Source: a virus
Taxonomy: Duplodnaviria > Caudoviricetes
DNA: 64,000 nucleotides
Reading direction: 5' to 3' (one strand)
IMG/VR virus record: IMGVR_UViG_3300028591_000003
Location: 64,001-128,000 of that record
Position numbers and translations under genes: made by a program. Each line of letters opens with the position of its first letter. Within the stretch, counting starts at the first letter, position 1. The notes below the pieces were generated by a model, which worked only from the letters and a program-made list of their open reading frames with translations, was not told the DNA's origin and made no database searches. Shown here piece after piece: positions 1,226 to 46,664 of this stretch.

Positions 1226-1323
1226 ACGCTTTATTTCTTTAGTAGTTCAAATTTTCACTTAATTTATAAAAAAAGAAAGGGAGTCCAATGGAAAACTCCA
1301 CCGAACTCCCTTAAAAATCTATG

Positions 1324-1403: not shown

Positions 1404-1516
1404 AGAGATACTTTATAATAATCAATGCAGGATTTGAACCTGCTACTTCAATTTTAACAAAATTGCGCTCTATCCATATGAGCTAATCGATCAAAATCAG
1501 TGTTGTAAGTATCTCT
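1404..1516 (-). ncRNA. handle RNA enclosing a tRNA-Asn(GTT)-like body (1420-1492)
   Basis: AGAGATACTTACAACA...AGTATCTCT helix flanks a cloverleaf with CAATT-TTGTTAA-AATTG anticodon arm. Confidence 0.75.
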
Positions 1517-1813: not shown

Positions 1814-2446
1814 TTATAGATTTATTAAACCTTTTTCTAACATTGCATGATGATTAGGGCATAGCCAAACTAAATTATTTTCATTATTTATTTCTTTAAT
1901 TAAAGTGTCTTCTGAAAATTCTAAAATTCCTTTTATATGATGTACTTCAAGTATTTCATCAAATTCATGATTTTTACAATAAGCACAAACTTTTTCTTTA
2001 TCAGATTTTTCTAATATTTTTCTTGCGTTTTTCCTAATTTCTCCACATTTAGTTGTGAGATATTTTTGTCCTGAAATATAATATCCTAAAGTTTTTTCTC
2101 CTATTGTTCCCCTTTTCTTGTTATAACATTCCAAACATATTTCAGAATGTACATCTTTAGGCTTTCCACATATAGGACAAATCTTATTAGGATTTTTTTC
2201 ATGTATATCTGTTCTGCCTTTGTTAAAGGTTTCAGATTCATTAATTATTCTTCTTCGAGGTAATTCAATTCCTAATTTTCTAGCAACTTTTTTAATATTA
2301 CTTCCAGAACAACCATATCTTCTACCTATTTCTTCATAACTGACTTTTTCTATATTTATAAGTCTTTCTAATTCTTCTTTTTCAGAATCCCATTTTGACA
2401 TATTTACAAACGAAGGGTTTTTAATCTTCGTACTATAAATATACAT
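1814..2446 (-). CDS. free-standing HNH endonuclease with N-terminal HTH and zinc fingers
   Basis: SYEEIGRRYGCSGSNIKK HTH; CPICG..CLEC; CAYC...LEVHHI...NLVWLCPNHH HNH motif. Confidence 0.9.
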   Translation of the reverse strand: MYIYSTKIKNPSFVNMSKWDSEKEELERLINIEKVSYEEIGRRYGCSGSNIKKVARKLGIELPRRRIINESETFNKGRTDIHEKNPNKICPICGKPKDVHSEICLECYNKKRGTIGEKTLGYYISGQKYLTTKCGEIRKNARKILEKSDKEKVCAYCKNHEFDEILEVHHIKGILEFSEDTLIKEINNENNLVWLCPNHHAMLEKGLINL

Positions 2447-2519
2447 TTTGAGTTCGAAAAATCAAACTTAAACTTATAAATTTAAGAAATTTTAACAATT
2501 ATAAAATAATACAATTTAG

Positions 2520-3094
2520 TACACCAGGTAGGATTCGAACCTACGACCTACTGCTTCATACTACTCTATGTTGCCATAGCCAAACAATGTCCTATTCTTA
2601 GACGATTAGATTTCCATCCTGCTAGGCATTTCACCACGCATTTTGTTTGTTGTAGTCTGGAATACATTATTACCATATTGAAATCCTTGCAAGTAACTAA
2701 GTCCGTTCATTCCCTTCTCATTTCCATCATTTCTGATTTCTCGGGTGTCTTCTTAGTAATTTCAATTTAGGTATCTCCTCTATACTCTCTACACGTTTAT
2801 AAGAAATAAGTGTCCACTCCTACAACACCTTTCGCTATATAAGCTAATGCTTCCATCATACAATACAATGGTATTTCTTAATTTAGCACGGTATTATCCT
2901 TACACATTATTGATTAGTGTTGTTAATCCTGTACTGATTTAACAGCTTAATGAGCGAATTGTTAACATCATTGCTCACACTCTTAGAAAAAGGACTTCCA
3001 CCGTTTTAGGGAGATTCTACATAGGACTTTCGTGCCCATGCATCCAATTTATTTATAGAAGGCAGTTGCTCTAATCCAGCTGAGCTACTGGTGC
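2520..3094 (-). tRNA. tRNA-Arg(TCT) split by a group I intron (exons 3094-3057 and 2556-2520)
   Basis: Joined exons give GCACCAG/CTGGTGT acceptor, ACTGC-CTTCT|AA-GCAGT anticodon arm and canonical T arm. Confidence 0.9.
2557..3056 (-). mobile_element. group I intron in tRNA-Arg(TCT), inserted after the anticodon, no ORF
   Basis: Exon ends in U, intron ends in G; core blocks (AATCTCC..AAA.CGGTGGAA.TCC, ATACCG.GC.AAAT, GTGTAGAGA, GGAGATACCTAA, CCAGAC.ACAAC) shared with the intron at 4356-4850. Confidence 0.85.
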
Positions 3095-3098
3095 TTAA

Positions 3099-3163
3099 AA
3101 AGATACTTATTTTTATAACCATCCTATATTTATGTTTTATTAAAAATAGTTGTAAGTATCTTT
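3099..3163 (-). ncRNA. handle RNA with non-tRNA payload
   Basis: AAAGATACTTACAAC...AAGTATCTTT terminal helix. Confidence 0.65.
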
Positions 3164-3661: not shown

Positions 3662-3665
3662 ATAC

Positions 3666-3733
3666 AAGATACTTTCAACAACTAACCTAAACAATTTACA
3701 AACTATGAAAGTAATAAAAATTGTAAGTATCTT
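3666..3733 (-). ncRNA. handle RNA with non-tRNA payload
   Basis: AAGATACTTACAAT...AAGTATCTT terminal helix. Confidence 0.65.
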
Positions 3734-3759
3734 ATATTATAATTATGCCAAAAAAGGAG

Positions 3760-4022: not shown

Positions 4023-4146
4023 AAGTTACTTAATAAATATTTGCATTAAACCACTATGCTAATCCGCAAACATGGAGCAGATAATGGATTCGAACCACTG
4101 ATACTTTTTTAAGTATAATATTTTTAACTAATATTGTAAGTAACTT
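4023..4146 (-). ncRNA. handle RNA with circularly permuted tRNA-like domain (YrlA-like topology)
   Basis: Order is handle 5', T arm (GTGG-TTCGAAT-CCAT), loop-closed acceptor (ATCTGC..GCGGAT), D arm (GCAT-AGTGGTTTA-ATGC), handle 3'. Confidence 0.75.
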
Positions 4147-4221: not shown

Positions 4222-4303
4222 ATTTACTACTACTTTTCATCTCGTGAGTAGCCAACGAGTGTTAAAACAGTTTAAATAGTTTATTAATGTCATCACGACA
4301 TCG

Positions 4304-4884
4304 TACGACAGGCGGGGATCGAACCCGCAAGATCTCTACAGACCTGAGGGATTTTCTTACCACTCTATGTTACCATAGCCAAACAAACACATTTTGTCGT
4401 TTAAAGCCGAGCAAGTTCTTAACTTCCATCTGATTTCACCCTTCAAAGAAGTTAATGCAGGCTTTTGTTTGTTGTGGTCTGGACTGTCTCTTTACCATAT
4501 TGAAATTCTTGCAAGTTCGTGACTTATCTCTATATATTGAGGGTTATCAAAAACCATTTTCTTTTGTCCTTATAAATTTCAACTTAGGTATCTCCCGTTC
4601 AGTCTCTACACGATTATAAGAAAAATATTCCTAAGAATATGGGTTGGGAATCGAACCCAACTTTACGCACCCGTAGGTGCACAGGATACCATTACCTGCC
4701 TACACTTCTTATTTTCGCTCGGTATAGTCCTACACATTATTTGTTAGTGTACAGTATTGGATTAAATTATGCACTGCTTTCACCTCAAGGATTTCCACCG
4801 AATTTAGGAGATTCTACTATGGGATTTCTCGCCATAGCACTCAATTTTCTAAGTCCCTTGTGTACACCATTCCACCACTGTCGC
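4304..4884 (-). tRNA. tRNA-Leu(TAA) split by a group I intron (exons 4884-4851 and 4355-4304)
   Basis: Joined exons give AGGGA-CTT|AAAA-TCCCT anticodon arm, long variable arm, GCGACAG/CTGTCGT acceptor. Confidence 0.9.
4356..4850 (-). mobile_element. group I intron within the UAA anticodon of tRNA-Leu, no homing ORF
   Basis: Exon ACTT pairs with intron GAGT (P1 with U:G at the splice site); terminal G; core homologous to intron 2557-3056. Confidence 0.85.
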
Positions 4885-4886
4885 AT

Positions 4887-4968
4887 TTGAGATACTTAAA
4901 TTTATCTTTTACCAACACGTTGTTCCTATATTTATGTTTAATTAAATAAATATTTATAAGTATCTCAA
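4887..4968 (-). ncRNA. handle RNA with non-tRNA payload
   Basis: TTGAGATACTTATAA...AAGTATCTCAA helix; payload shares a 15-mer with 3099-3163. Confidence 0.65.
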
Positions 4969-6076: not shown

Positions 6077-6209
6077 TCGGGGGACCAGGAATCGAACCTG
6101 GGACTTAGATTTATGAAATCCTTATTTTATTATGCTTTAAGATGTTGTAGGTATCAAAATGATACTAATGCTTTTATTTTCTTACATGTTACCACTACAC
6201 CATCCCCCA
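6077..6209 (-). ncRNA. tRNA-like RNA (CAT loop) with handle hairpin between D and anticodon arms
   Basis: GGGGGA/TCCCCC acceptor, D arm, insert with AGTATC-ATTTT-GATACCTACAACA, CCAGG-TTCGATT-CCTGG T arm. Confidence 0.7.
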
Positions 6210-6220
6210 TATAATAAATC

Positions 6221-6349
6221 GGAAGGAGAGTTGGACTCGAACCAACAACACTTTGTTTAATAGACAAATACTCTAACCTCTTGAATTTATTAAATTATAA
6301 GTAACTCACGAAATTACTAGAATCAATTTTTATGTTGAGTTATCCGGCC
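6221..6349 (-). ncRNA. tRNA-like RNA (ATT loop) with handle hairpin in the D loop; degenerate acceptor
   Basis: ACTC/GAGT D stem encloses AGTAAT..GTTACTTATAAT; TTTGT-CTATTAA-ACAAA arm; GTTGG-TTCGAGT-CCAAC T arm. Confidence 0.65.
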
Positions 6350-6353
6350 AATT

Positions 6354-6495
6354 TAATCCAAACTCTGTACAGAAACAGTTTCTTTCTTCATTATAGGTGC
6401 GTGTTATCCTAATTTTTACAGATTCAATGAAACTACCTACGTTTAGTTACATTATATCTGACCGCCAATTTCAATATCGCTGTTAGTTTGGATTA
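6354..6495 (-). ncRNA. handle-variant RNA with multi-hairpin payload
   Basis: TAATCCAAACTAACAGC...AGTTTGGATTA: 11-bp helix ending in ACT/AGT followed by AACAGC. Confidence 0.5.
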
Positions 6496-6496
6496 G

Positions 6497-6613
6497 TGGA
6501 GGGAGCAGGAATCGAACCTACATTATAGTCATTTTACGCATGATTAGAAATTTACTATGATTGAATGGTAAGTATCATATGATACTCGTCGTTACCAATA
6601 TTTCAATCCCTCC
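6497..6613 (-). ncRNA. tRNA-Tyr-like RNA (GTA loop) with handle hairpin in the D loop
   Basis: GGAGGGA/TCCCTCC acceptor; AGTATC-ATAT-GATACTTACCA insert; GTAGG-TTCGATT-CCTGC T arm. Confidence 0.7.
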
Positions 6614-6688
6614 AAATTAAAATTAGTAATCTATCTTCACAGACCAATTACTACTGTCAAACCTTAAAAAACATAACAAATTATGCAG

Positions 6689-6806
6689 CGGGGAGTACAA
6701 GAGTCGAACTTGCACTTCTGGAAAATCCCAGAAATTATGAAAGATGTTTTTGTAAGTAATAATTTACTACTCAACATAATCGGGCTTAACCATGCCCAAA
6801 CTCCCC
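6689..6806 (-). ncRNA. tRNA-like RNA with handle replacing the anticodon loop; long variable arm
   Basis: GGGGAGT/ACTCCCC acceptor, GGGC/GCCC D stem, ATTATG/CATAAT stem enclosing AGTAGT..ATTACTTACAAA, TTCTGG/CCAGAA variable arm, T arm. Confidence 0.7.
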
Positions 6807-6810
6807 TAAT

Positions 6811-6916
6811 TAAGATACTAGAAAATACATCTTGGAATCGAACCAAGTACACTCGGCGTTACGGCTGATGCTCTAACCAAATGAGCTAATGTGGTTATAT
6901 TATTGTAAGTATCTTA
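6811..6916 (-). ncRNA. handle RNA enclosing a degenerate tRNA body
   Basis: TAAGATACTTACAAT...AGTATCTTA around GCTC/GAGC D arm and CTTGG-TTCGATT-CCAAG T arm. Confidence 0.7.
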
Positions 6917-6974: not shown

Positions 6975-7367
6975 TCATTTTATACTATCATTTTTATTAA
7001 TAGACCAACTATCTACCCATTTGTCTAAAGCTTTTATACATTTATCTGGAAGTTGTTTTGCAGTTGGATTTGATTTAACATAATCAATAGTTCCACCAAC
7101 TCCATAAATAAGAAGTGCTTGATTTGTTGTAGGAATAAATATTTCTCCTAGACAGCAAACAAAGAAAATAGGTATTGTAAACCTAAGAATTTTAATTGAC
7201 AATTTTTGATACATTTTGTATTCAGTACGTTGGTCCTCAACTTCATTGCAATAGTTTACTAAATATACTATAAAAAATGCTATAGAAAGAATAATACTAG
7301 TAACAAGGAATATTGTTAAAACAGTACTGATTGAATCAAATCTTGTAATCCAATAAATTTCATTCAT
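6975..7367 (-). CDS. membrane protein, hypothetical
   Basis: 130 aa with two hydrophobic helices. Confidence 0.8.
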   Translation of the reverse strand: MNEIYWITRFDSISTVLTIFLVTSIILSIAFFIVYLVNYCNEVEDQRTEYKMYQKLSIKILRFTIPIFFVCCLGEIFIPTTNQALLIYGVGGTIDYVKSNPTAKQLPDKCIKALDKWVDSWSINKNDSIK

Positions 7368-7386: not shown

Positions 7387-7452
7387 AGGATACTAAAAAT
7401 GTCCCAATTAAAAGTTAGGTGCTTACTAGCAATTTAGTATTATAAGTATCCT
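7387..7452 (-). ncRNA. handle RNA with short non-tRNA payload
   Basis: AGGATACTTATAATA...AGTATCCT helix. Confidence 0.6.
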
Positions 7453-7483
7453 ATTTATTATGAAAGTAATTATTATAAAGTAA

Positions 7484-7604
7484 AAGTTACTTAGTAAAAA
7501 ACGTTGCTCTAAACCAAGCTGAGCTATCCCGAAACCCTCAGGAGTTGGATTTGAACCAACGACACACGGCTTACAAAGCTGATTCTTGATATTGTAAGTA
7601 ACTT
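7484..7604 (-). ncRNA. handle RNA with circularly permuted tRNA-Thr(TGT)-like domain
   Basis: Order is handle 5', anticodon-like arm (TTTGTAA), T arm, loop-closed acceptor (TCCTGA..TCGGGA), D arm (GCTC/GAGC), handle 3'. Confidence 0.75.
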
Positions 7605-7661
7605 AATTAGAAACTAGAGGAGGAATCGAACCTCCTCTAGTCGTGATGCTTATTAAAAAAA

Positions 7662-9521
7662 TCAAAGGGTATTTGCTCTCACGAGTTCATACCTATTGCT
7701 TCTATAGAGACTCAACAGTGGAGTATAGACATCAAAGACATCCATATCCTTGAAGTTAGTCAGGAATTGCTCAATCATTGCTGGATTCGAAGGTATGTAC
7801 ATCATGTTGTCAATTCCACTAAATCGGTCTGCTCCAGCACTAGCACGAGAGCCAACAGCACCAGTAACATCCATAAGGATTACGTAAGGACGGAATCCAA
7901 AGAACCCCTCACACTGACGGAAGAAATCGTTCATACTCGCCTCTGGTGAATACATATTATTGAACATACCATCAGACATGATTGTCCATACAGGATAGTT
8001 ACGAAGAGCATCCTTAATCTCAGGATTTGCCTGACAAGCCTGGTTCAATCCCTTAGGAATACATGAAATATCAGTATTCCATCCCTGGAACTTACTTTGA
8101 AGGAAAGCAGAAATCCTCTTGTAATTATCCAGGAAACTAAGTTTAGGATCAACGAATGGTTGTGCCTTAGTCTTAGCTACCTTACTTCTTAAGATTGAGT
8201 TCTGAGATGTAGCCTGAGAATCAATGTAAGAATAGAAACGAGATGTTCCATCAAACATACCAACGAGATTACGAGCATCATCATCGGGATTCTTAACCAT
8301 ACATACTGCAGTAATAAAGGCAGCAAATCTGAATGGTGTACCACTCATAGAACCAGAACTGTCAATAATGGTCAGTGAATTATAAGGAAGATTAACCTTA
8401 TTCATAAAGGACTCAATCTTCAACTTATCAATTGTGCCACTAAGAATCTGGTTGTAGAGTTCAGTAAAGTTAGTAGCACCAATTGTTACCTTGGCCTCTT
8501 TCTTCACTTTCTCCAATTTAACCTTATCCTCCTCACTAGCCTGACCTTGACGAACCTTCTCTTCCAGAATACGTTGTTCTTGTTGCTTCTGCTCCTTATA
8601 AGTTTCCCATTCCTTGATCCAAGGCTGGAACTTAGCCCACTTAGATACTTCTGCAATAGCTACATTAGACTTTCCATCCAATCCAGCTGTCTCACAGTCT
8701 GCACCTACTACCTTGGAATAGAGGATTCTGTTCTTAACCCTGAACCTAGCCTGAGATGGGAGCTTGTCAAACCAGTCGATGAATTGCTGCTTGTCAAACT
8801 CATTTATCTTGCCAGTAGAGAAAAGTACAGATTCAAGAGAGCCATTGTACTGCTTTCGCCACTCACGATAACCCTTAAAATATTCCAGTTCCCATCCCAT
8901 CATCTTAGAGAGTTCAGTTAAGAAGTTCTTTTTCTCATTCATTACCTGAATAGTCTCAGGAAGAACTCTCTTATGACCTTGACGCTTACTGGTTCTTGGG
9001 ATAGTCAAGAACTTGGCAATCAATGTCTTATTGAACGGATTAGAACCGTTAATCACAGCATATGTATAGTCAAGAAGAGCCTTCACATACTCTTTATCTT
9101 GAAATGCATGATATATTTTCAGTACCTTCGAACCCTTAGTTTGAACTCGATTACGGAACAAAACATCAAAGCATGTATACTCATTAAAGAGTTGTGCATT
9201 TAAAAACTTGATGAATTGTTTCTTATCTTTTTTCCAAAGCCAGGTTGTGATAGTATAGAAAGCCTCACGATTGGCATTACCACCACTGTCAACCTTCTTC
9301 TTTTTAAAGATGTTGTGCTGACGATTAGTAATGTCTCCAATAGAGAACAGGATTGAGAAGAAAAGTTCTCTCTTTTCTTTAGAGTTCTTTACTTCAAGCC
9401 ATGCATCATTCAGAAGAACCTCTGAAATAACTGCATCAGTTGATGCCTGCTGAAGTTGCAGACATCTGCGAAGTCCGTAAAACGGATTGTTACTTTTTTT
9501 ATTAAGTTCTACTTGTACCAT
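7662..9521 (-). CDS. TROVE/Ro60-like (DUF2828-type) helical protein with C-terminal VWA domain
   Basis: MIDAS DSSGSMSG, NTD and IMSDGMFN motifs; N-terminal blocks (GDI..GG..NREAF, IAKFL, YREWRK, DKLPSQA) recall DUF2828/TROVE; family call from memory. Confidence 0.7.
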   Translation of the reverse strand: MVQVELNKKSNNPFYGLRRCLQLQQASTDAVISEVLLNDAWLEVKNSKEKRELFFSILFSIGDITNRQHNIFKKKKVDSGGNANREAFYTITTWLWKKDKKQFIKFLNAQLFNEYTCFDVLFRNRVQTKGSKVLKIYHAFQDKEYVKALLDYTYAVINGSNPFNKTLIAKFLTIPRTSKRQGHKRVLPETIQVMNEKKNFLTELSKMMGWELEYFKGYREWRKQYNGSLESVLFSTGKINEFDKQQFIDWFDKLPSQARFRVKNRILYSKVVGADCETAGLDGKSNVAIAEVSKWAKFQPWIKEWETYKEQKQQEQRILEEKVRQGQASEEDKVKLEKVKKEAKVTIGATNFTELYNQILSGTIDKLKIESFMNKVNLPYNSLTIIDSSGSMSGTPFRFAAFITAVCMVKNPDDDARNLVGMFDGTSRFYSYIDSQATSQNSILRSKVAKTKAQPFVDPKLSFLDNYKRISAFLQSKFQGWNTDISCIPKGLNQACQANPEIKDALRNYPVWTIMSDGMFNNMYSPEASMNDFFRQCEGFFGFRPYVILMDVTGAVGSRASAGADRFSGIDNMMYIPSNPAMIEQFLTNFKDMDVFDVYTPLLSLYRSNRYELVRANTL

Positions 9522-9992
9522 TGTTTTAAATTTATTATTTGTAAGTAACTAATTAAATAAATTTCCTACATCTGTTTTATAGCAATTAACTCGTTCAATC
9601 TACTAAAGAGATTCTACTAAAGTGCAGATTCTCACTGCTTTTCTATTTTACAGTCTCCATCACGTTGCTTTACGTATCACAATGACCTCAATCACATGTT
9701 TGCCACTACAAGGTCTTTCAACTGTCAATTCAGTATGCCCATTGAAGGTTCAATATTGGAATTCCCTTCAGCCCTCGGAAATTTATTATAAATTAAAATA
9801 CTATCTAACGCTATAAACGCAGGAGTTGGCAACACCCTTTTCTCCCTAGCATAAGTTAATATGCCTCCAATTCGACCAATAGATAGTATTTTATCTGAAA
9901 AAGAGTGGCTTCGAGCGGTTTTATCTCTACTTCACCCGCGCTATAGTTTCCGCACACGTGGTTCCGGTATCAAGCTTCACTCTTATTCTTGT

Positions 9993-10430
9993 TTAGTTGA
10001 ACTCTTCCGTAGAATCCATAGCAGCAAGCTCTGCCTCCATCTCCTTAATACGATCCTCAGGAGTTTTGGTGGACTCTTTAAGTTCAGCGAGCTTCTCAGT
10101 AAGCTCTGCCTTCTTACGGCGACTCTCTGCGAGTTCAAGATGGTAGCGCTTGAAACCTACAATGAGATTTACAAGTTCCTTCATCTCCTTGAGAGAATCG
10201 AGTTCAGTAGTGTTAACTTCTACCCATTCATCCTTGTTCTCAAGATTCTGAATCTTAGTTGAAAGACCAGCCTTGATATTGTTCAGGGTGTTAATACTTG
10301 TTGTGTGAATCAACTCTACAATGTTAAGTGGAGCACCCATTTTAGTAGAGATTGTACTGTTTGTCATGAGCATCTTAAGAGCAAGCTCACACATCTTGCT
10401 GTAATGCTCTTTTGTGAAATTTATTTTCAT
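9993..10430 (-). CDS. coiled-coil hypothetical protein
   Basis: 145-aa ORF with heptad-rich C-terminus. Confidence 0.8.
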   Translation of the reverse strand: MKINFTKEHYSKMCELALKMLMTNSTISTKMGAPLNIVELIHTTSINTLNNIKAGLSTKIQNLENKDEWVEVNTTELDSLKEMKELVNLIVGFKRYHLELAESRRKKAELTEKLAELKESTKTPEDRIKEMEAELAAMDSTEEFN

Positions 10431-20700: not shown

Positions 20701-20776
20701 TGGGGCGTAGTCGAGCGGCTTCAGACTGGAGACTCTAAATCTCTGCATTACGCGGGTTCGAATCCTGCCACCCCAA
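20701..20776 (+). tRNA. amber suppressor tRNA (CUA anticodon), Gln-type acceptor
   Basis: GGAGA-CTCTAAA-TCTCT anticodon arm; U1-A72, G2-C71, G3-C70; GCGGG-TTCGAAT-CCTGC T arm. Confidence 0.93.
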
Positions 20777-20793
20777 CTAGACGTAAATGAATT

Positions 20794-40508: not shown

Positions 40509-43500
40509 ATGGACTTATATAACGGAAAAATAAATGAATTTATAGATTGGTTAACAGGAGATAATATTATAACTGGACAAAATGAAACCGATCAATTAAA
40601 AGTATCTGGAGGAAGTATTAGATAGTTACTATAGGAAAGATTAAGAAGTCCGTTTGTATTAAAAGAAGATATTGAAAATAACTTGTATAGAATGTTCTCT
40701 AGTGAAACTGCTTATTAGATGTGGTTAGAAAATCCGTCTGATAATGCTGATCTCGAACTATTTAATTTTGTTAGACCTAGTGATTATAAATTAAACATTA
40801 TAATTAATAGTAATAATAGGTTTGTAAGATATGGAGATAGTTCAAATTTAAATACTAGAATACAATATACTTGGGATATAAGAAATGATGAAGGAGAGTC
40901 TACAGATGGACTTACTGCAACATATACAATTGTAAACGAAGCATCAGGTAAAACAACAACATTTACAAGATGGTATAACAAAGGTGAGGCTGTAGATTTT
41001 AGTATATATCAATACCTAGAACCAGGAACAAATACTATAACTATTTCAGCTAGAGGTTCTACAACAGGTGCTAGAAATAGTGCTACATTCAATATAGTAT
41101 TACTTTAGCTTAATGTAAGTAGTACATTTGATTTTATGGAAAAATATGCTAACGGAGATCAAATTACTTTTCCTTGTACATTTACTCGTAATAATCAAGA
41201 TGGAACTGCTAATATACATTTTGTTATAGATGAAGGCGGAAACGGAAAAGAATGGATTTATCAAGTATTGAAAAATACAGGAACTCAAATTAATGCTACT
41301 CAAAGAGTTGTTCCAAATTTAGATCCTGGATTACATACACTACAAATATGGGCAGAAGCGGCTTATAACGATGGAACTATTATTATAAATAGTAATATGT
41401 TATATTATACATTTGTTATTGCTACACCTGAAATTTCTGTTCAAAAATATATATGTATTTCTACTTCTTTTGATTCTGGATCATTTCCAATGACTAATTT
41501 GGTTTTACAAGCTAAACAATATCTTCCTTCAATTCTTAATTGGGGATATTATACTGATGCAGAACAAACAGATACTTAGATACAAGTTACATGGAAATTA
41601 TATGAAAATTAGGATGATGAAAATCCTGATTTATTAGGCAATGCTACTGCAAATAGTAGATAGATTGCTCCATCGTTATCTTATATTCCAACAATATATT
41701 CTGAATATGATGATGGTTCTCAACCTCTTTCATATTTATCTGCTCAATGGAACAATAACGAATTAATAAGAATTCCAATACAAATTCAACAAAATAGTGA
41801 TATATAGATATATGAAACTGGAGCATTTGTTCTTAAATTATCTGCTTATGGTAGAACAAATGATAGTTCAGATAAAAATGAATGGATAGATTCTGAACAT
41901 AATATAGATACTAATTTTACAGGTATTCAATGGAATACTAACTCTGGATGGTATAACAATACTTTTAGAACTGTCGGAACTAATGAATATGCAGAAATAA
42001 ATTATAGTCCTTTTTATGGATTTTCATTTAATAACGGAAAAACTATTGAAATTGAATTTGAAACAGAAAAAACCAATTCTGATAATGATAAATTAATTAT
42101 AATTGGAAGTCCTTATGCTGCTAGAATCGAAATTACTCCTGTAAGAGCATCGTTATATTCTAATGATGGAACTGAAGTTGTTCATACTAATTATAAATCA
42201 AATGAACGCATCAAAATTGCATTTATTATAAATCCTATTTCTGTAGGAGAAAAAACTGTGGAATCAGGACTTGCTTATATTATCAATAATGGAATATTGG
42301 AAAGAGCAGCTTCTGCTTCTGGATATGCTTTTAATACAAGTGGAAATATTAAAATAGGTGGGTCTAACTCTGGAATTAGAGTATATAATATGAGAATTTA
42401 TAATTATGCTATTACTTATTCTGATGCTTATAATAATTATGTTTATGATAGTGAAAATAAAGTTGATATTGTAAATGATAATAATGTATTAGGTACTTCT
42501 GGAGAAATTAGTTTTGATTTATGCAAAAATAAACTTGATACAATTCTTATATCCGGAGATTTAAGTAATATTCTTAATTAGAATAGTGATAAACAAGATT
42601 CTACTACAGATGTAACAATTGAAAGAATATGTCCTTATGATACTACTAAAAATTTTAAAATTAATAATGCTTAGCTTAGAAAACATGGACAATCTACATT
42701 AAATTATCCTATTACTTCTATGAAAATGTGGTTTAATAAATCCAAATCTGGAATACAACCCATATTTGAAATAGTACCACAATAGAAATACTCTTATAAT
42801 AAGAATAGATATAAGATGAAAGAAACCTCTATTCCATAGAATAAGTTTGTTCTTCAAGCCAACTATGCTGACTCTTCTGGAGTTCATAATGGAAGTTTAT
42901 TAAGACTAATTCAGTCATCTTGGTTTAATGCTAAAATTGATGGAGAATATAAGTTAAGAACTTTACCTCAATTATTTACAACAAATCAAACAGTTACTCA
43001 TAATTCTGTCGAATTAAACGATGTTAATGATAATATAGATGGTCTTAATGAAGAAGGACATAATTGGAATTATTATTCTCCTAGAACAGAGTTTCCTTAT
43101 GATATAAGAATCTCTCCTGATTCTTTCCCTTGTGTAGTATTTTATTATGATGAAGCAGGAACACAGCAACGTACATTCTTAGGATAGTATGTATTTATGG
43201 ATGATAAGAAATCTGATTTCTTATACGGTGAACGTAGTATATATAAAATTCCAACTGATCCGTTCTGCTTAACTACTACTCATGCTAAAGATGATACCAA
43301 AGAAAATAAAATATGGGATAATAAAAATGTTCTTAGAATAGAAGTACTTGAATCTAACAATAGATATTCATCTTATATGTCTACTGAAGGATTTAATGAA
43401 AGAAATGGAAGTCGTTATGGATGGGAAACTGCTTTCGAAATGATTTATCCCGATCCCGATGATTTAAATGAAAAAGATACTAAAGAAGGTAAAAATAAAT

Positions 43501-46500
43501 TTGATCCAGATTCAGCATTTGCTATTGCAGCTAAACCTTTTGTAGATTGGTATAACTGGTTAGTAAGTACTAGAAATAATCATACTAAATTTAGACAAGA
43601 AGCAGCACAACATCTTGATTTGTATAAGATAGCTGCTTATTATATTTTTGCATTAAGATTTGGTCTTGTTGACTCACTTGAACGTAATGCACAAATAAAA
43701 ACATATGATGGAATTCATTTCCATTATGAACCATGGGATATGGATATTGCATTAGGTAATAAGAACGATGGTGGTATTGCTTATGATCCTCCTATCGATC
43801 GTAATACAAAACTTCCTGGAAGTATTTCTACATATGCATATTCTGGAAAAAGTGGAAATAAAGATACTGGAGAAATAGTGACATCTAACTGGTTATTTGA
43901 TGCTCTTGAAGCATGGCCTTATTGGATGAATACAATAGTTCCAAAAGTTGCTGATGCATTATATAATGCAGGACTTACTTATGATAATATAAGTAAAATG
44001 TTCGATGAAGAATATGCTAGTGCTTGGTGTGAAATAATATATAATAAGAGTGGATTCTTTAAATATATTGAATCTGGTAACTTTGATACAAAATGGTTAT
44101 CCTGGTTACAAGGTTCTCGTATGACACATAGACACTGGTGGTTAAGCACTTCTATGGACTATTATGATGCTAAATGGTTCTGTGGTGATTATAAAAATCA
44201 CTATATTTATATTACAGCTAACGTATCAGAAGGTAGTGGAGCAAAAATAAGAATTACTCCTAACAAAGATACTTATATGACTACTGCTATCAACTATATG
44301 CCAGATGAACAAACTGATCCAGATCCAGAAAGTGTAGTTGTACAAGGTACTGTTCCTGTTACACCTAATAATCCACTAGTTTATACAGTTCCTAATTTAA
44401 ATACAAAAGCTCCTTTCTTTGTATATGGTGCTAATTTTATGGAAGATATAAATCTTAGTGAAATAGCTACAGGACTTGATACTATTGATATTAATGGTGT
44501 TTATTCTAATGTATTAGGTTCTCCTTTAAAATCTTTAAATATTGGAGTAAACTTTACATAGACTGACGATACCTATACAGGAACCGTTGCTACTCTTGGT
44601 GGTAGTATTCGTGGTAATGCTAGAACTCTTTAGAATTTATAGACTTTGAATGTTGCAGGATAGAGAAACTTTATAGACACTAGATTTATAAGAGATTATG
44701 ATTTAGTAGAATTGAAAAATTTCTATGCTATGGGATCAGGTATTACTAATTTCTGGAGTTCTGAATCTGGTAATAAATTTAATATTTTACAATTACCTGA
44801 TACAGTTAGTATTTTTGATATAAATAATACTAATTGGAATAATCTTACATTCTGGCATACAGAAATAAATAATAGTGCTGCTACTATTACACCTACAGGA
44901 ATCTCTTCTAATTTACAAACCGTTAGATTAAATGGAACAAGTTGTCAAGACTATAATTCTATTTAGTTTATTAGAGAATGGTTGTAGGCAATAATTACTA
45001 CAGAAGGAGTTGAAGGATTAAAGAATCATACTTTCGAAGCAAATAAAATATACTGGACTTCTGATTCTGTAGGAGGTGATAATAATCTACTTACATATGA
45101 CGAATTAGCTTTAATTGCTCAATTAAATGGAGATCCAGATCCTGTAACAGGTAAGAAAAATCATAATCTTAAAGGATATATTGTTCTTAGAAATGAAAAT
45201 GGAACACATCTTACTACAGAACAACTTACTCAAATCAAAAACTGGTTTGGTGATACAGTCTTTACTAAAAATTCATCTGGACTTGTAATTGATCATATGT
45301 TAGAATATGTTCAAATTAATGTTGGTGGTGATATTTAGATGGATAATAATGAACTTTATTTAAACGAAGATAGTAGAGCTTCATTAAATGCTACTAAATT
45401 TGCACTTGCTGAAAGTGATACAGATGATGGAATTTGGACAGTATCTTATGCTTCTGTTACAGATGTACAATAGTCTTCTAATGGTATTACTGATAGAGGA
45501 ATACGTATTATAAATGCAGAAGAAAGTGCTGACGGACACACTTATTTATAGACTGCTGAATCACAACTCGGAGGTAATTATGATATTAAAGTATGGTATA
45601 CAGCAAATGGACAATCTGTTTATGTAATAATTCACATGATTGGAGTTTAGTATCCTAGTAATATAAATTTTGCATTAGATATTAAAGGACAATATAGACC
45701 TAGATTATCTACAGGAAGTGCAACTATTTATCTTAATGGAACACAATTTGATTTGTATTTAGATTTAGACTCTATACAATATACCGCTAAAATAAGAAAT
45801 ATTACTTATAGAATTACTGACGGAACAGATGTGTTTACTTATGATACTTTAACAGATTATGCTTCCGATTAGAATTGGAATAATCTATATTTAGAAGTAA
45901 ATAAATCTACTAGTAAGAAGGGAATATATTTGAATTGTTCTAGTGGTGTTCCTAATGATGATACAATTTATCAATATTAGGTTACAGCTACTATAAGATT
46001 CTTATCTGGAAAATCAATGCAAATAAATTATAATATTATTATAATGAACGACGCTGCTATCATAATAAGTGTTCAAACTGCTATGTATAATGCAGTTAAT
46101 AATAGATGGACATAGAAATATGGTGAAGCAATAGGTCGTAGTACAATATATCGTAGTGATTTAATGTAGTTAGACGGAACACTTACATTCGATTCTTCTA
46201 TATTAAATGTATATACTAATAATGGTAGTACATTATTCAATTATTTACCTAATATAACGGGACTTGTATTTACAGGGTGTACTTCGTTAACTAGTACTTA
46301 TACTGTTCCTGGAGGAGAGACTATAAACTTGTTCACATTTGATAAAATGACTAATCTACAAACATTAGTATTATCAAATTGTTCTAGTTTGACAGAAGAT
46401 ATAGATTTAACTAATTGTCCGAATTTAATATCAGTTATTGCCGACGGAACTACTATAAATATAGTATTACCTGAAGGTACTGGTATTACACAATATGTAT

Positions 46501-46664
46501 TAGGTACTCCTACAGAGATAAGTCTTATCAATCCTACTGCAATTACTACAGATGATAATCATTTGCATGTAGATGATTCTAGTAATATAGATTCACTTGA
46601 ATTGGTAAATATACCTAATGTTAAGTCATTTACAGCATTTAGTAGAATAATGGGAATATCATGA
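40509..46664 (+). CDS. giant tail-region protein (~2051 aa): beta-rich/LamG-like, CotH-kinase-like and LRR-like segments
   Basis: All plus-strand fragments in one frame; LVDSLERN and YEPWDMDIALG kinase-like motifs; LQTLVLSNCSSL..DLTNCPNL repeats. Confidence 0.75.

What the first reader, a model, noticed from the sequence alone, without database searches (positions are those of the whole stretch)
6077..6916. Same handle grafted at different positions of tRNA cloverleafs
Within 840 nt the handle sits between D and anticodon arms (6077-6209), in the D loop (6221-6349, 6497-6613), in place of the anticodon loop (6689-6806) and as an acceptor-stem extension (6811-6916; also 1404-1516). In internal grafts the strand order is reversed and closed by a short loop, as expected if the 3D helix is the selected unit. 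Each topology leaves a different tRNA face exposed. Inference: tethered decoys for tRNA-targeting defence nucleases or for tRNA-binding host enzymes.
Basis: partly seen in the sequence, partly recalled or inferred. Interest (0 to 1): 0.85.

Follow-up and report, generated by a model that had tools for sequence, protein, structure and literature searches.

The report
Phage Ro60-like protein with handle-tagged tRNA mimics
A 176-kb bacteriophage encodes about a dozen small RNAs, most of them shaped like tRNAs, that carry one conserved short "handle" at different places; they lie next to a gene for a protein shaped like the RNA-binding ring Ro60, so this is probably an undescribed branch of the known Ro60/Y-RNA particles.

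Summary
On the minus strand a 7-8 bp helix (consensus AGAUACU / AGUAUCU) followed by unpaired UACAA occurs at all five stated positions. It also occurs in seven more RNAs between 1404 and 7604 and in one mRNA leader.

Three topologies recur in 49 related phage loci:
- handle strands around a 35-65 nt body;
- handle strands around a 70-125 nt tRNA or permuted tRNA;
- an inverted hairpin inside a cloverleaf.

Helix positions covary and UACAA stays constant. Orthologue alignments of three of the five RNAs in the stretch (6221-6349, 6689-6806, 6811-6916) keep cloverleaf and handle through compensatory changes. This is not decay.

The inserts are unlikely to be introns. One family has no anticodon loop at all. 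In the others the anticodon differs between orthologues. No RNA ligase was found in the phage.

The best reading is that the handle is the binding site of the adjacent 619-aa protein. Its predicted fold is most like Ro60 (helical repeats plus vWA/MIDAS), and its own mRNA leader carries the same handle around the start codon. Two of the RNAs have YrlA topology. The RNAs would then be Y-RNA-like adaptors. Binding is inferred, not shown, and the decoy idea stays open.

Other follow-ups in this scan reached the same reading on other phages. I found no published description.

The parts
7662..9521 (-). Gene of the 619-aa Ro60-like protein (helical-repeat domain plus C-terminal vWA with a MIDAS motif)
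9489..9552 (-). Handle formed by the leader and codons ~8-10 of the Ro60-like mRNA, enclosing the start codon (9521)
   Evidence: GUUACUU-ACAAA lies 26 nt upstream of the AUG and pairs with AAGUAAC in the coding sequence. The same arrangement, with compensating extensions (CGUUACUU/AAGUAACG, UGUUACUU/AAGUAACA), occurs in about 20 of the 30 related loci that carry the motif in the leader.
7484..7604 (-). Handle strands around a circularly permuted tRNA: anticodon-like arm, T arm, loop-closed acceptor stem, D arm
   Evidence: 10-bp helix AAGUUACUUA/UAAGUAACUU. Rfam YrlA 39 bits, E 7.5e-6, below the gathering score of 69. The closed acceptor stem is fully compensated in orthologues.
7387..7452 (-). 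Handle strands around a ~50-nt non-tRNA body, directly upstream of ORF 6975-7367
   Evidence: 8-bp helix AGGAUACU/AGUAUCCU followed by UAUAA.
6811..6916 (-). Whole tRNA-like cloverleaf caged by leader and trailer handle strands; 6-nt anticodon loop
   Evidence: Rfam tRNA 34.5 bits. Family alignment A8: handle 98.9% paired, 3 of 7 pairs compensated. Model R1 scores it 103.7 bits.
6689..6806 (-). Class-II tRNA-like body (long variable arm, G at the discriminator position) with the handle hairpin in place of the anticodon loop
   Evidence: Alignment A4 of 9 orthologues: 95.5% of cells paired, 11 of 32 pairs compensated, 0 of 500 shuffles reach this.
6497..6614 (-). tRNA-like body with the handle hairpin in the D loop
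   Evidence: Fold z -3.26. Orthologues keep the D stem through UUGAA/UUCAA to UUAAA/UUUAA, and keep a 7-nt anticodon-like loop of changing sequence.
6221..6349 (-). tRNA-like body with the handle hairpin in the D loop; the acceptor stem is weakened in this copy
   Evidence: Alignment A5: 86.9% paired, 15 of 28 pairs compensated, 0 of 500 shuffles. Rfam tRNA 34.2 bits, partial.
6077..6209 (-). tRNA(CAU)-like body with the handle hairpin inserted between the D arm and the anticodon arm
   Evidence: The only orthologue (L004, 95% identical) carries two compensated changes in the T stem.
4887..4968 (-). Handle strands around a ~58-nt non-tRNA body
   Evidence: 12-bp helix, fold z -4.33. Orthologues in 4 loci.
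4023..4146 (-). Handle strands around T arm, loop-closed acceptor-like stem and D arm (YrlA topology)
   Evidence: 10-bp helix. The closed stem covaries in 4 orthologues.
3662..3737 (-). Handle strands around a ~50-nt non-tRNA body, upstream of tRNA-Glu
   Evidence: 13-bp helix, fold z -3.22.
3099..3163 (-). Handle strands around a ~43-nt non-tRNA body, upstream of the intron-bearing tRNA-Arg
   Evidence: 11-bp helix, fold z -3.65.
1404..1516 (-). Good tRNA-Asn(GUU) caged by leader and trailer handle strands
   Evidence: 10-bp helix. Rfam tRNA 58.9 bits. R1 78.6 bits. A second, uncaged tRNA-Asn(GUU) exists in the genome's other tRNA array.
9993..10430 (-). 145-aa ORF of no known family, conserved directly upstream of the Ro60-like gene
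   Evidence: tblastn hits in 42 of 49 related loci at the same position. No clear Pfam, PHROG or Atlas family.

Best explanation
The handle is a 7-8 bp RNA helix with an invariant A-C step, followed on the same strand by single-stranded UACAA. I propose it is the constant docking site for the 619-aa Ro60-like protein encoded just upstream.

The roughly twelve RNAs of the array would then be Y-RNA-like adaptors: one constant protein-binding module joined to a variable body. Most bodies are tRNA-shaped. Because the protein would recognise a helix, the helix can be formed in two ways. It can join the 5' and 3' ends of the RNA, as in classical Y RNAs and YrlA; here these include permuted tRNAs and caged whole tRNAs. 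Or it can be a hairpin in a loop of a cloverleaf whose acceptor ends stay free.

The same handle around the protein's own start codon would let free protein repress its own translation.

The tRNA-shaped bodies would bring the protein to tRNA-binding host factors, or bring such factors to the protein. Candidates include processing, repair or degradation enzymes and tRNA-targeting defence nucleases.

Shown here: the conserved, covarying RNA architecture; its linkage to the gene; and the Ro60-like predicted fold. Inferred: that protein and handle bind each other, the autoregulation, and the downstream function.
For: 1. The handle is a real, selected RNA helix. Helix variants such as AGAUACU/AGUAUCU, AGUCACU/AGUGACU, AGACACU/AGUGUCU, UGUCACA/UGUGACA and UGGCACU/AGUGCCA all keep pairing, and UACAA is constant.
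2. The bodies are kept by selection: 95.5%, 86.9% and 89.3% of cells paired, with 11/32, 15/28 and 11/27 compensated pairs. At most 1 of 500 shuffles reaches any of the main measures, and slid controls reach only 32-59%.
3. Linkage to the gene. Motif copies pile up on the gene's strand, ~30 nt before its start and directly after its stop, in nearly all 49 loci, where protein identity runs from 35 to 78%. Within this genome the handle is confined to this array and absent from the second array of 15 tRNAs.
4. The leader/start-codon handle is conserved with compensating changes.
6. Two array members have YrlA topology, and one scores 39 bits against Rfam YrlA.
7. Precedent: tRNA-like Y RNAs are encoded next to Ro60 in more than 250 bacteria and phages (PMC4201824), and a phage Ro60 binds phage-encoded Y-like RNAs (PMC12135203).
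8. Distant homologues of the protein also sit in phage tRNA clusters.
Against: - No sequence method places the protein in TROVE: Pfam gives nothing, and the profile search against PDB gives only weak vWA-region hits (E 0.01-0.5).
- TM-scores to solved Ro60 structures are low (0.29-0.48).
- The handle sequence is unlike the canonical Ro60-binding bulged helix.
- Binding is inferred from gene neighbourhood only. A conserved 145-aa neighbour, or a host protein, could be the true reader of the handle.
- Distant homologues of the protein lack this handle nearby, although those contigs are short.
- No expression data could be obtained.
Confidence: 0.6

Rival explanations
1. The RNAs act as decoys or sponges for host tRNA-targeting defence nucleases or other tRNA-binding enzymes. 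This could be with or without the Ro60-like protein, and the handle would serve only for stability or tethering.
For: Every body keeps an intact T arm and an acceptor stem, and most keep a 7-nt anticodon-like loop with invariant U33. Among close relatives, anticodon positions 34 and 35 differ in 47% and 61% of pairs, against 12% for other columns. Such fast turnover is expected in an arms race. Some copies are useless as decoders: one has a 6-nt loop, one has no anticodon loop, and the caged Asn duplicates another tRNA-Asn.
Against: No nuclease, target or host is identified. Anticodon turnover also fits relaxed constraint on a part that is not used. Four array members have no tRNA body at all. 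The idea does not explain the handle on the protein's own mRNA.
Confidence: 0.2
2. The handle is a processing or maturation signal, cut by a host or phage RNase to release units from a long transcript. The tRNA-shaped RNAs would then be ordinary phage tRNAs or their precursors.
For: Handle strands flank whole tRNAs, one of which is a good tRNA-Asn at 58.9 bits. Units are packed a few bases apart in an array that ends at a strong terminator-like hairpin at 1312..1277.
Against: The eight normal tRNAs of this array that ARAGORN calls without a handle (the ninth call in the array is the caged Asn), and all 15 of the other array, lack the handle. Internal hairpins would leave a disrupted D loop or no anticodon loop after any cut. 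A sequence-specific invariant core (AC plus UACAA) is more than a double-strand RNase needs.
Confidence: 0.1
3. The inserts are a new kind of short tRNA intron, excised and religated to give working tRNAs, as bulge-helix-bulge introns and permuted tRNA genes are in archaea and algae.
For: The inserts sit at various non-canonical positions, and permuted tRNA genes occur in the same array. In archaea and red algae that combination marks endonuclease/ligase splicing. For 6209..6077, removing the insert would give a regular tRNA(CAU).
Against: In the 6806..6689 family the bases next to the anticodon stem belong to the covarying handle, and no conserved anticodon can be restored. Anticodons differ between orthologues. 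The permuted forms have acceptor stems closed by 3-9 nt loops that covary as stems. No RtcB or RNA ligase family was found in the complete genome. The same handle also flanks non-tRNA bodies and an mRNA start.
Confidence: 0.04
4. The motif works at the DNA level. It would be a phage promoter (TACAAT resembles a -10 box), or the terminal inverted repeats of a small mobile element that has spread through the array.
For: The motif lies ~30 nt upstream of two ORF starts. The A...B arrangement looks like terminal inverted repeats.
Against: Acceptor 5' strands upstream of the internal motif covary with 3' strands downstream of it, so transcripts must run through the motif. Orthologous copies sit at fixed places and evolve by compensatory change rather than by copying. 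The sigma-70 scan gives no excess (40 found, 38.7 expected). Strand order is inverted in the internal copies, which a transposon end does not explain.
Confidence: 0.04

Closest known systems
Bacterial and phage Ro60 (Rsr) with YrlA-type Y RNAs (Chen et al. 2014, PMC4201824; Rfam RF02553)
   Same: Small RNAs are encoded beside a Ro60-type gene and are modular: a protein-binding stem plus a tRNA-like domain with T arm, D arm and a loop-closed acceptor-like stem. Two RNAs here (7604..7484, 4146..4023) have exactly that topology.
   Different: The protein is not detectably TROVE by sequence. The handle (ACU-UACAA) is unlike the canonical Ro60-binding helix. There are about 12 RNAs rather than the few reported per locus. 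The handle also occurs as an internal hairpin in cloverleafs with free acceptor ends, around complete tRNAs, around non-tRNA bodies, and on the protein's own mRNA.
Thermus phage phiLo Ro60 with Yrl1/Yrl2 (PMC12135203; PDB 9KOP, 9L5Y)
   Same: A phage-encoded Ro60-type protein with phage-encoded partner RNAs next to the gene. 9KOP and 9L5Y are among the best full-length structural matches.
   Different: phiLo Ro60 is a recognisable TROVE protein. Its two RNAs have the classical stem-bulge-stem form with a CGAA motif and no tRNA grafts.
DUF2828/DUF7788 (vWA) proteins of phages and eukaryotes (Pfam PF11443, PF25043), function unknown
   Same: Best named structural neighbours in the ESM Atlas (TM 0.60/0.75 over ~440 residues), with the same two-domain order.
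   Different: No Pfam hit to either family in this protein or in 55 relatives. About 140 residues longer.
Class I RNAs of dictyostelid amoebae (PMC7919456)
   Same: Same plan as the short members here: ~60 nt, a short stem joining the 5' and 3' ends, a conserved single-stranded motif directly after the 5' strand of the stem, and a variable rest. From memory, the 11-nt motif contains UUACA; I could not check this in the text held.
   Different: Eukaryotic, with no tRNA bodies, and the known partner is an RRM protein. No model-based comparison was run here. This is a lead from earlier scan notes, not a tested relationship.
Non-canonical and permuted tRNA genes processed through bulge-helix-bulge splicing (Archaea, Cyanidioschyzon)
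   Same: tRNA genes are interrupted at varied positions or circularly permuted, with a helix joining the break points.
   Different: There is no bulge-helix-bulge geometry, no restorable anticodon, and no ligase; an endonuclease was not searched for. The helix carries a sequence-specific motif that also occurs away from tRNAs.

Membership tests
Ro60 / TROVE proteins | TROVE domain recognisable by sequence (Pfam PF05731) | tested here: not met
   No hit in the protein, in 55 relatives or in the whole genome, while the control genomes rang. The family profile against PDB gives only weak hits in the vWA region (E 0.012-0.52 to Ro60/TROVE chains).
Ro60 / TROVE proteins | N-terminal helical-repeat domain followed by a C-terminal vWA domain with a MIDAS motif | tested here: met
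Ro60 / TROVE proteins | Overall fold superposes on solved Ro60 rings | tested here: inconclusive
Ro60 / TROVE proteins | Binds Y RNA on the outer ring surface and single-stranded RNA ends in the central hole | not testable with these tools
   Needs binding assays or a structure of the complex.
Y RNAs, YrlA subfamily (RF02553) | Encoded within a few kb of the Ro60-type gene | tested here: met
   The array starts 58 nt after the stop codon. The same holds in 49 related loci.
Y RNAs, YrlA subfamily (RF02553) | Stem formed by the 5' and 3' ends carries the protein-binding site | tested here: not met
   This holds for the eight A...B members. It does not hold for four of the five RNAs in the finding's stretch (6077-6806), where the handle is an internal hairpin and the RNA ends lie in the acceptor stem.
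Y RNAs, YrlA subfamily (RF02553) | tRNA-like domain in the order T arm, loop-closed acceptor-like stem, D arm, reaching Rfam's gathering score | tested here: inconclusive
   7590..7472 scores 39 bits, E 7.5e-6, against a gathering score of 69. The topology and the covarying closed stem are present at 7604..7484 and 4146..4023.
Y RNAs, YrlA subfamily (RF02553) | Canonical Ro60-binding bulged helix | tested here: not met
   The handle consensus is (A)G(A/U)(U/C)ACU-UACAA paired with AGU(A/G)(A/U)CU. The YrlA model's stem columns align poorly to it.
Spliced tRNA introns or permuted tRNA genes (bulge-helix-bulge type) | Removal of the insert restores a cloverleaf with a 7-nt anticodon loop and a conserved anticodon | tested here: not met
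   There is no anticodon loop in the 6806..6689 family. Anticodons differ among orthologues in the others. It would be possible only for 6209..6077.
Spliced tRNA introns or permuted tRNA genes (bulge-helix-bulge type) | A ligase to join the exons is encoded | tested here: not met
   No RtcB or RNA_ligase (PF09414) match in the complete genome, while controls rang. The PF09511 search is uninformative, because nothing rang in any control. A host enzyme cannot be excluded.
Transfer RNAs (decoding) | Complete cloverleaf with a 7-nt anticodon loop | tested here: inconclusive
   Met by the caged Asn at 1516..1404 (58.9 bits). Not met by four of the five RNAs in 6077-6916: two have a disrupted D loop, one has no anticodon loop, and one has a 6-nt loop. 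The fifth, 6209..6077, keeps a 7-nt loop but carries a ~62-nt insert between the D arm and the anticodon arm.

The most novel reading that the evidence does not exclude
The phage uses one protein-binding handle as a portable tag on a fast-evolving set of tRNA look-alikes. Some keep free acceptor ends and could perhaps still be charged. The Ro60-like protein would thereby be delivered to, or would intercept, whatever host machinery attacks or handles particular tRNAs. The rapid change of anticodon positions 34 and 35 between sister phages would then record an arms race with anticodon-specific defence nucleases. That would make this a programmable, RNA-guided counter-defence particle.
Probability: 0.15. 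Interest if true: 0.85.

Novelty: new variant of a known kind. Interest (0 to 1): 0.62.

Why it matters
Ro60/Y-RNA particles are known from animals, bacteria and a few phages, but what the tRNA-like part of bacterial Y RNAs does is still unknown.

Here one phage lineage offers a natural experiment. The same protein-binding module sits on a dozen bodies that expose different faces of the tRNA shape, and there are dozens of related genomes to compare. It extends the Y-RNA concept in three ways:
- to a protein family that sequence searches do not place in TROVE;
- to RNAs whose handle is internal rather than terminal;
- to likely self-regulation of the protein's own mRNA.

If the bodies engage tRNA-directed defence or repair enzymes, the system bears on how large phages protect translation during infection. 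The handle could also serve as a compact tag for tethering proteins to designed RNAs.

Tried and rejected
- Similar DNA or protein in deposited phage records: only one 74-nt tRNA match, and no protein match.
- Literature: I found no paper on permuted tRNA genes in phages or on this RNA-protein pair. A 2026 preprint on bacterial tRNA mimics concerns other RNA families.
- Rfam, even at E up to 10: nothing for the short members or the handle.
- Reciprocal scan of the viral collection for the handle pattern: uninformative. About 80 of 113 hits were single, probably chance, copies; the multi-copy hits were mostly contigs already known to carry the protein.
- Sigma-70 promoter scan: no excess over shuffles.
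- N-terminal domain folded alone: only generic helical-repeat matches.
- The conserved 145-aa neighbour and the 130-aa ORF inside the array: no informative family.
- Distant homologues of the protein: contigs too short to show whether an array with a different handle exists.
- First structure string for the 6806..6689 family was misregistered by one column in one helix. It was corrected.
Full report
**Context.** The window lies in a complete 176,443-bp phage genome with direct terminal repeats. G+C is about 30%. Late genes on the plus strand are open only if TAG is read through, and a tRNA with anticodon CUA lies at 20701-20777. Terminase, portal and tail proteins confirm a tailed phage. The first 10 kb of the window is transcribed on the minus strand. 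It holds a crowded array of tRNA genes, two of them with ~500-nt introns, and an HNH endonuclease gene.

**The observation.** Read on the minus strand, one element recurs. I call its first strand A: consensus AGAUACU, immediately followed by UACAA. Its complement, strand B, has the consensus AGUAUCU. All five stated sites hold.
- 6209..6077: a hairpin B-loop-A inside a ~62-nt insert between the D arm and the anticodon arm of a tRNA(CAU)-like body.
- 6349..6221 and 6614..6497: a hairpin in the D loop.
- 6806..6689: a hairpin on top of the anticodon stem, replacing the anticodon loop of a class-II tRNA-like body.
- 6916..6811 and 1516..1404: A in the leader and B in the trailer, pairing around a complete cloverleaf.

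Further members lie outside the given coordinates. Two are circularly permuted tRNAs whose acceptor stem is closed by a loop and whose ends are joined by the A:B helix (7604..7484, 4146..4023). Four have non-tRNA bodies of 43-58 nt (7452..7387, 4968..4887, 3737..3662, 3163..3099). One more copy lies on an mRNA leader (9552..9489).

Twelve of the 13 minus-strand matches to the 11-mer in the whole genome fall in this 8-kb stretch. The genome's other array of 15 tRNAs has none.

**Relatives.** An exhaustive HMMER search with the neighbouring 619-aa protein found 156 relatives at E up to 0.001, among one-per-cluster representatives at 50% identity. A scan of viral contigs gave 49 loci with proteins 35-78% identical. 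In nearly all of them the motif piles up on the gene's strand, both ~30 nt before its start and from a few tens of bases after its stop.

Across these loci I collected 258 distinct handles: 135 A...B pairs around 70-125 nt, 85 A...B pairs around 35-65 nt, and 38 B-loop-A hairpins with loops of 0-9 nt. A partner strand of at least 8 bp exists for 66% of motif copies, against 17% for a decoy word of the same composition.

The helix covaries at four to five positions. The A-C step and UACAA are almost invariant.

**The bodies are under selection.**
- 6806..6689 family, nine orthologues: 95.5% of cells paired, 11 of 32 pairs compensated, no shuffle out of 500 reaching this, and slid controls at 43-51%.
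- 6349..6221 family: 86.9% paired, 15 of 28 pairs compensated. Six of the seven acceptor pairs are compensated.
- Caged-tRNA family: 89.3% paired, 11 of 27 pairs compensated, with the handle helix 98.9% paired.
- 6209..6077 has a single orthologue, 95% identical, with two compensated T-stem pairs.
- 6614..6497 was only inspected in a four-sequence alignment, where the D stem is compensated.

A covariance model of the caged form finds about 60 full members. Most loci have one to three directly after the gene.

**Are the inserts introns?** Probably not.
- In the 6806..6689 family the bases next to the anticodon stem belong to the covarying handle, and no anticodon can be restored.
- In the D-loop and caged families the anticodon stem and a 7-nt loop with invariant U33 are kept, but the triplet differs between orthologues. 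Examples are AUU, AUG, GCU, GAA, GUU and GGU, and UUU, GCU, GAU, UGU, CAU.
- Among pairs at least 80% identical elsewhere, positions 34 and 35 differ in 47% and 61% of cases, against 12% on average. Position 36 is mostly U.
- The window's own copies include a 6-nt loop and a weakened acceptor stem.
- The complete genome has no RtcB and no PF09414-type RNA ligase. A third ligase family search was uninformative.
- The same handle flanks non-tRNA bodies.

A DNA-level role as promoter or transposon end is hard to square with one fact: acceptor strands on either side of the internal motif covary, so transcripts must run through it.

**The neighbouring protein.** It has no Pfam or PHROG family and no match among deposited phage records. 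A confident AlphaFold model (pLDDT 86.6, pTM 0.83) shows a helical-repeat domain followed by a vWA domain with invariant MIDAS residues.
- The twelve best Foldseek matches in the PDB are all Ro60, Rsr or phage TROVE proteins aligned over the full length (E 1e-5 to 7e-4). TM-scores are low, 0.29-0.48.
- Among predicted structures, DUF2828/DUF7788 clusters (TM 0.60/0.75) and phage TROVE clusters (TM 0.53/0.63-0.66) are the nearest named families.
- The N-terminal domain alone gives only generic HEAT/ARM matches.

I therefore call it Ro60-like in architecture and probably a very distant relative. I do not file it as a TROVE member.

**Links between RNA and protein.**
- The handle is tied to the gene's position across 49 loci.
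- The mRNA itself carries the handle. A lies ~30 nt upstream of the AUG, and B lies in codons ~8-10, mostly AAGUAAC. Extensions compensate (CGUUACUU/AAGUAACG, UGUUACUU/AAGUAACA) in about 20 of the 30 loci that carry the leader motif. A regulator's binding site enclosing its own start codon is the usual signature of translational autoregulation.
- Two members have the topology of YrlA, the tRNA-like Y RNA encoded next to bacterial and phage Ro60. One scores 39 bits against the Rfam model, below its threshold of 69 (PMC4201824).
- A phage Ro60 that binds phage-encoded Y-like RNAs and engages host PNPase has been described (PMC12135203).
- Distant homologues of the protein (21-26% identical) lie in phage tRNA clusters too, though without this handle.

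**Mechanism proposed.**
- Shown: a constant helix-plus-tail module combined with variable, mostly tRNA-shaped bodies in several wirings, all conserved, next to a Ro60-like gene that carries the module on its own leader.
- Inferred: the protein binds the module. The RNAs act like Y RNAs, as adaptors or gates that connect the protein with tRNA-binding factors. The protein limits its own synthesis when free.

Each wiring leaves different parts of the tRNA exposed. The T arm and an acceptor stem are always kept. The D loop, the anticodon loop or the acceptor ends are blocked in turn. That fits adaptors aimed at different partners, but it is an inference. The decoy reading is one possible function within this frame.

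**Novelty.** Ro60 with tRNA-like Y RNAs is known, also in phages. The following appear to be undescribed in the papers I could search:
- this protein family;
- this handle;
- the size of the array;
- internal handles in cloverleafs with free ends;
- caged whole tRNAs;
- the handle on the mRNA.

Earlier follow-ups in this same scan reached the same general reading on other phage genomes. They also noted a resemblance of such handles to dictyostelid Class I RNAs. The shared plan (short terminal stem, conserved motif after the 5' strand, variable rest) is confirmed by PMC7919456. I did not test a relationship.

Noticed in passing
window 2519-3094 (-) and 4303-4884 (-): tRNA-Arg(UCU) and a tRNA-Leu each carry a ~500-nt intron in the anticodon loop. 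ARAGORN's intron mode calls the Leu anticodon UAA; my hand reading gave UAG. The two introns share their 3' part (UGUUUGGCUAUGGYAACAUAGAGU) and the word GUAGAAUCUCC, and look like group I introns. Rfam reports no group I match even at the E-value threshold.
   Followed up: partly
window 4632-4711 (-): A T-arm-like hairpin (GUUGGGUUCGAUUCCCAAC) and neighbouring tRNA-like arms lie inside the tRNA-Leu intron. An earlier scan note also flagged this.
   Followed up: no
window 9550-9990 (-): A ~440-nt non-coding stretch lies between the conserved 145-aa ORF and the Ro60-like gene. It is richer in G+C than its surroundings and contains UAGUAGAAUCUC, the word shared by the two long tRNA introns. No Rfam match.
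   Followed up: no
window 7610-7640 (-): Just after the stop codon of the Ro60-like gene lies a perfect 10-bp hairpin with a T-loop sequence (CUAGAGGAGG-UUCGAUU-CCUCCUCUAG). It looks like a tRNA minihelix or a terminator.
   Followed up: no
window 20701-20777 (+) and 21000-64000: A suppressor-type tRNA(CUA) precedes the late genes, whose frames are open only with TAG read as sense (for example a 2051-aa ORF at 40509-46664). The early region, including the Ro60-like gene, uses the standard code.
   Followed up: partly
window 1814-2446 (-): A free-standing HNH endonuclease gene lies inside the tRNA array, between tRNA-Asp and the intron-bearing tRNA-Arg.
   Followed up: partly
alignment A9 (caged tRNAs of 49 loci): Anticodon position 36 is U in 44 of 62 distinct caged tRNAs. 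The family therefore mimics tRNAs for ANN codons (Lys, Asn, Thr, Ile, Met, Ser), while positions 34 and 35 change quickly.
   Followed up: partly
L164:1039-4439 and L165:2085-4218: Distant homologues of the Ro60-like protein sit among tRNA genes without the UACAA handle. One directly follows an AAA ATPase gene, an arrangement seen for MoxR-vWA pairs.
   Followed up: no
window 6349-6221 (-): This copy pairs a 5' acceptor strand like that of one relative (L005) with a 3' strand like that of others (L019, L043). It looks like a recombinant with a weakened acceptor stem.
   Followed up: partly
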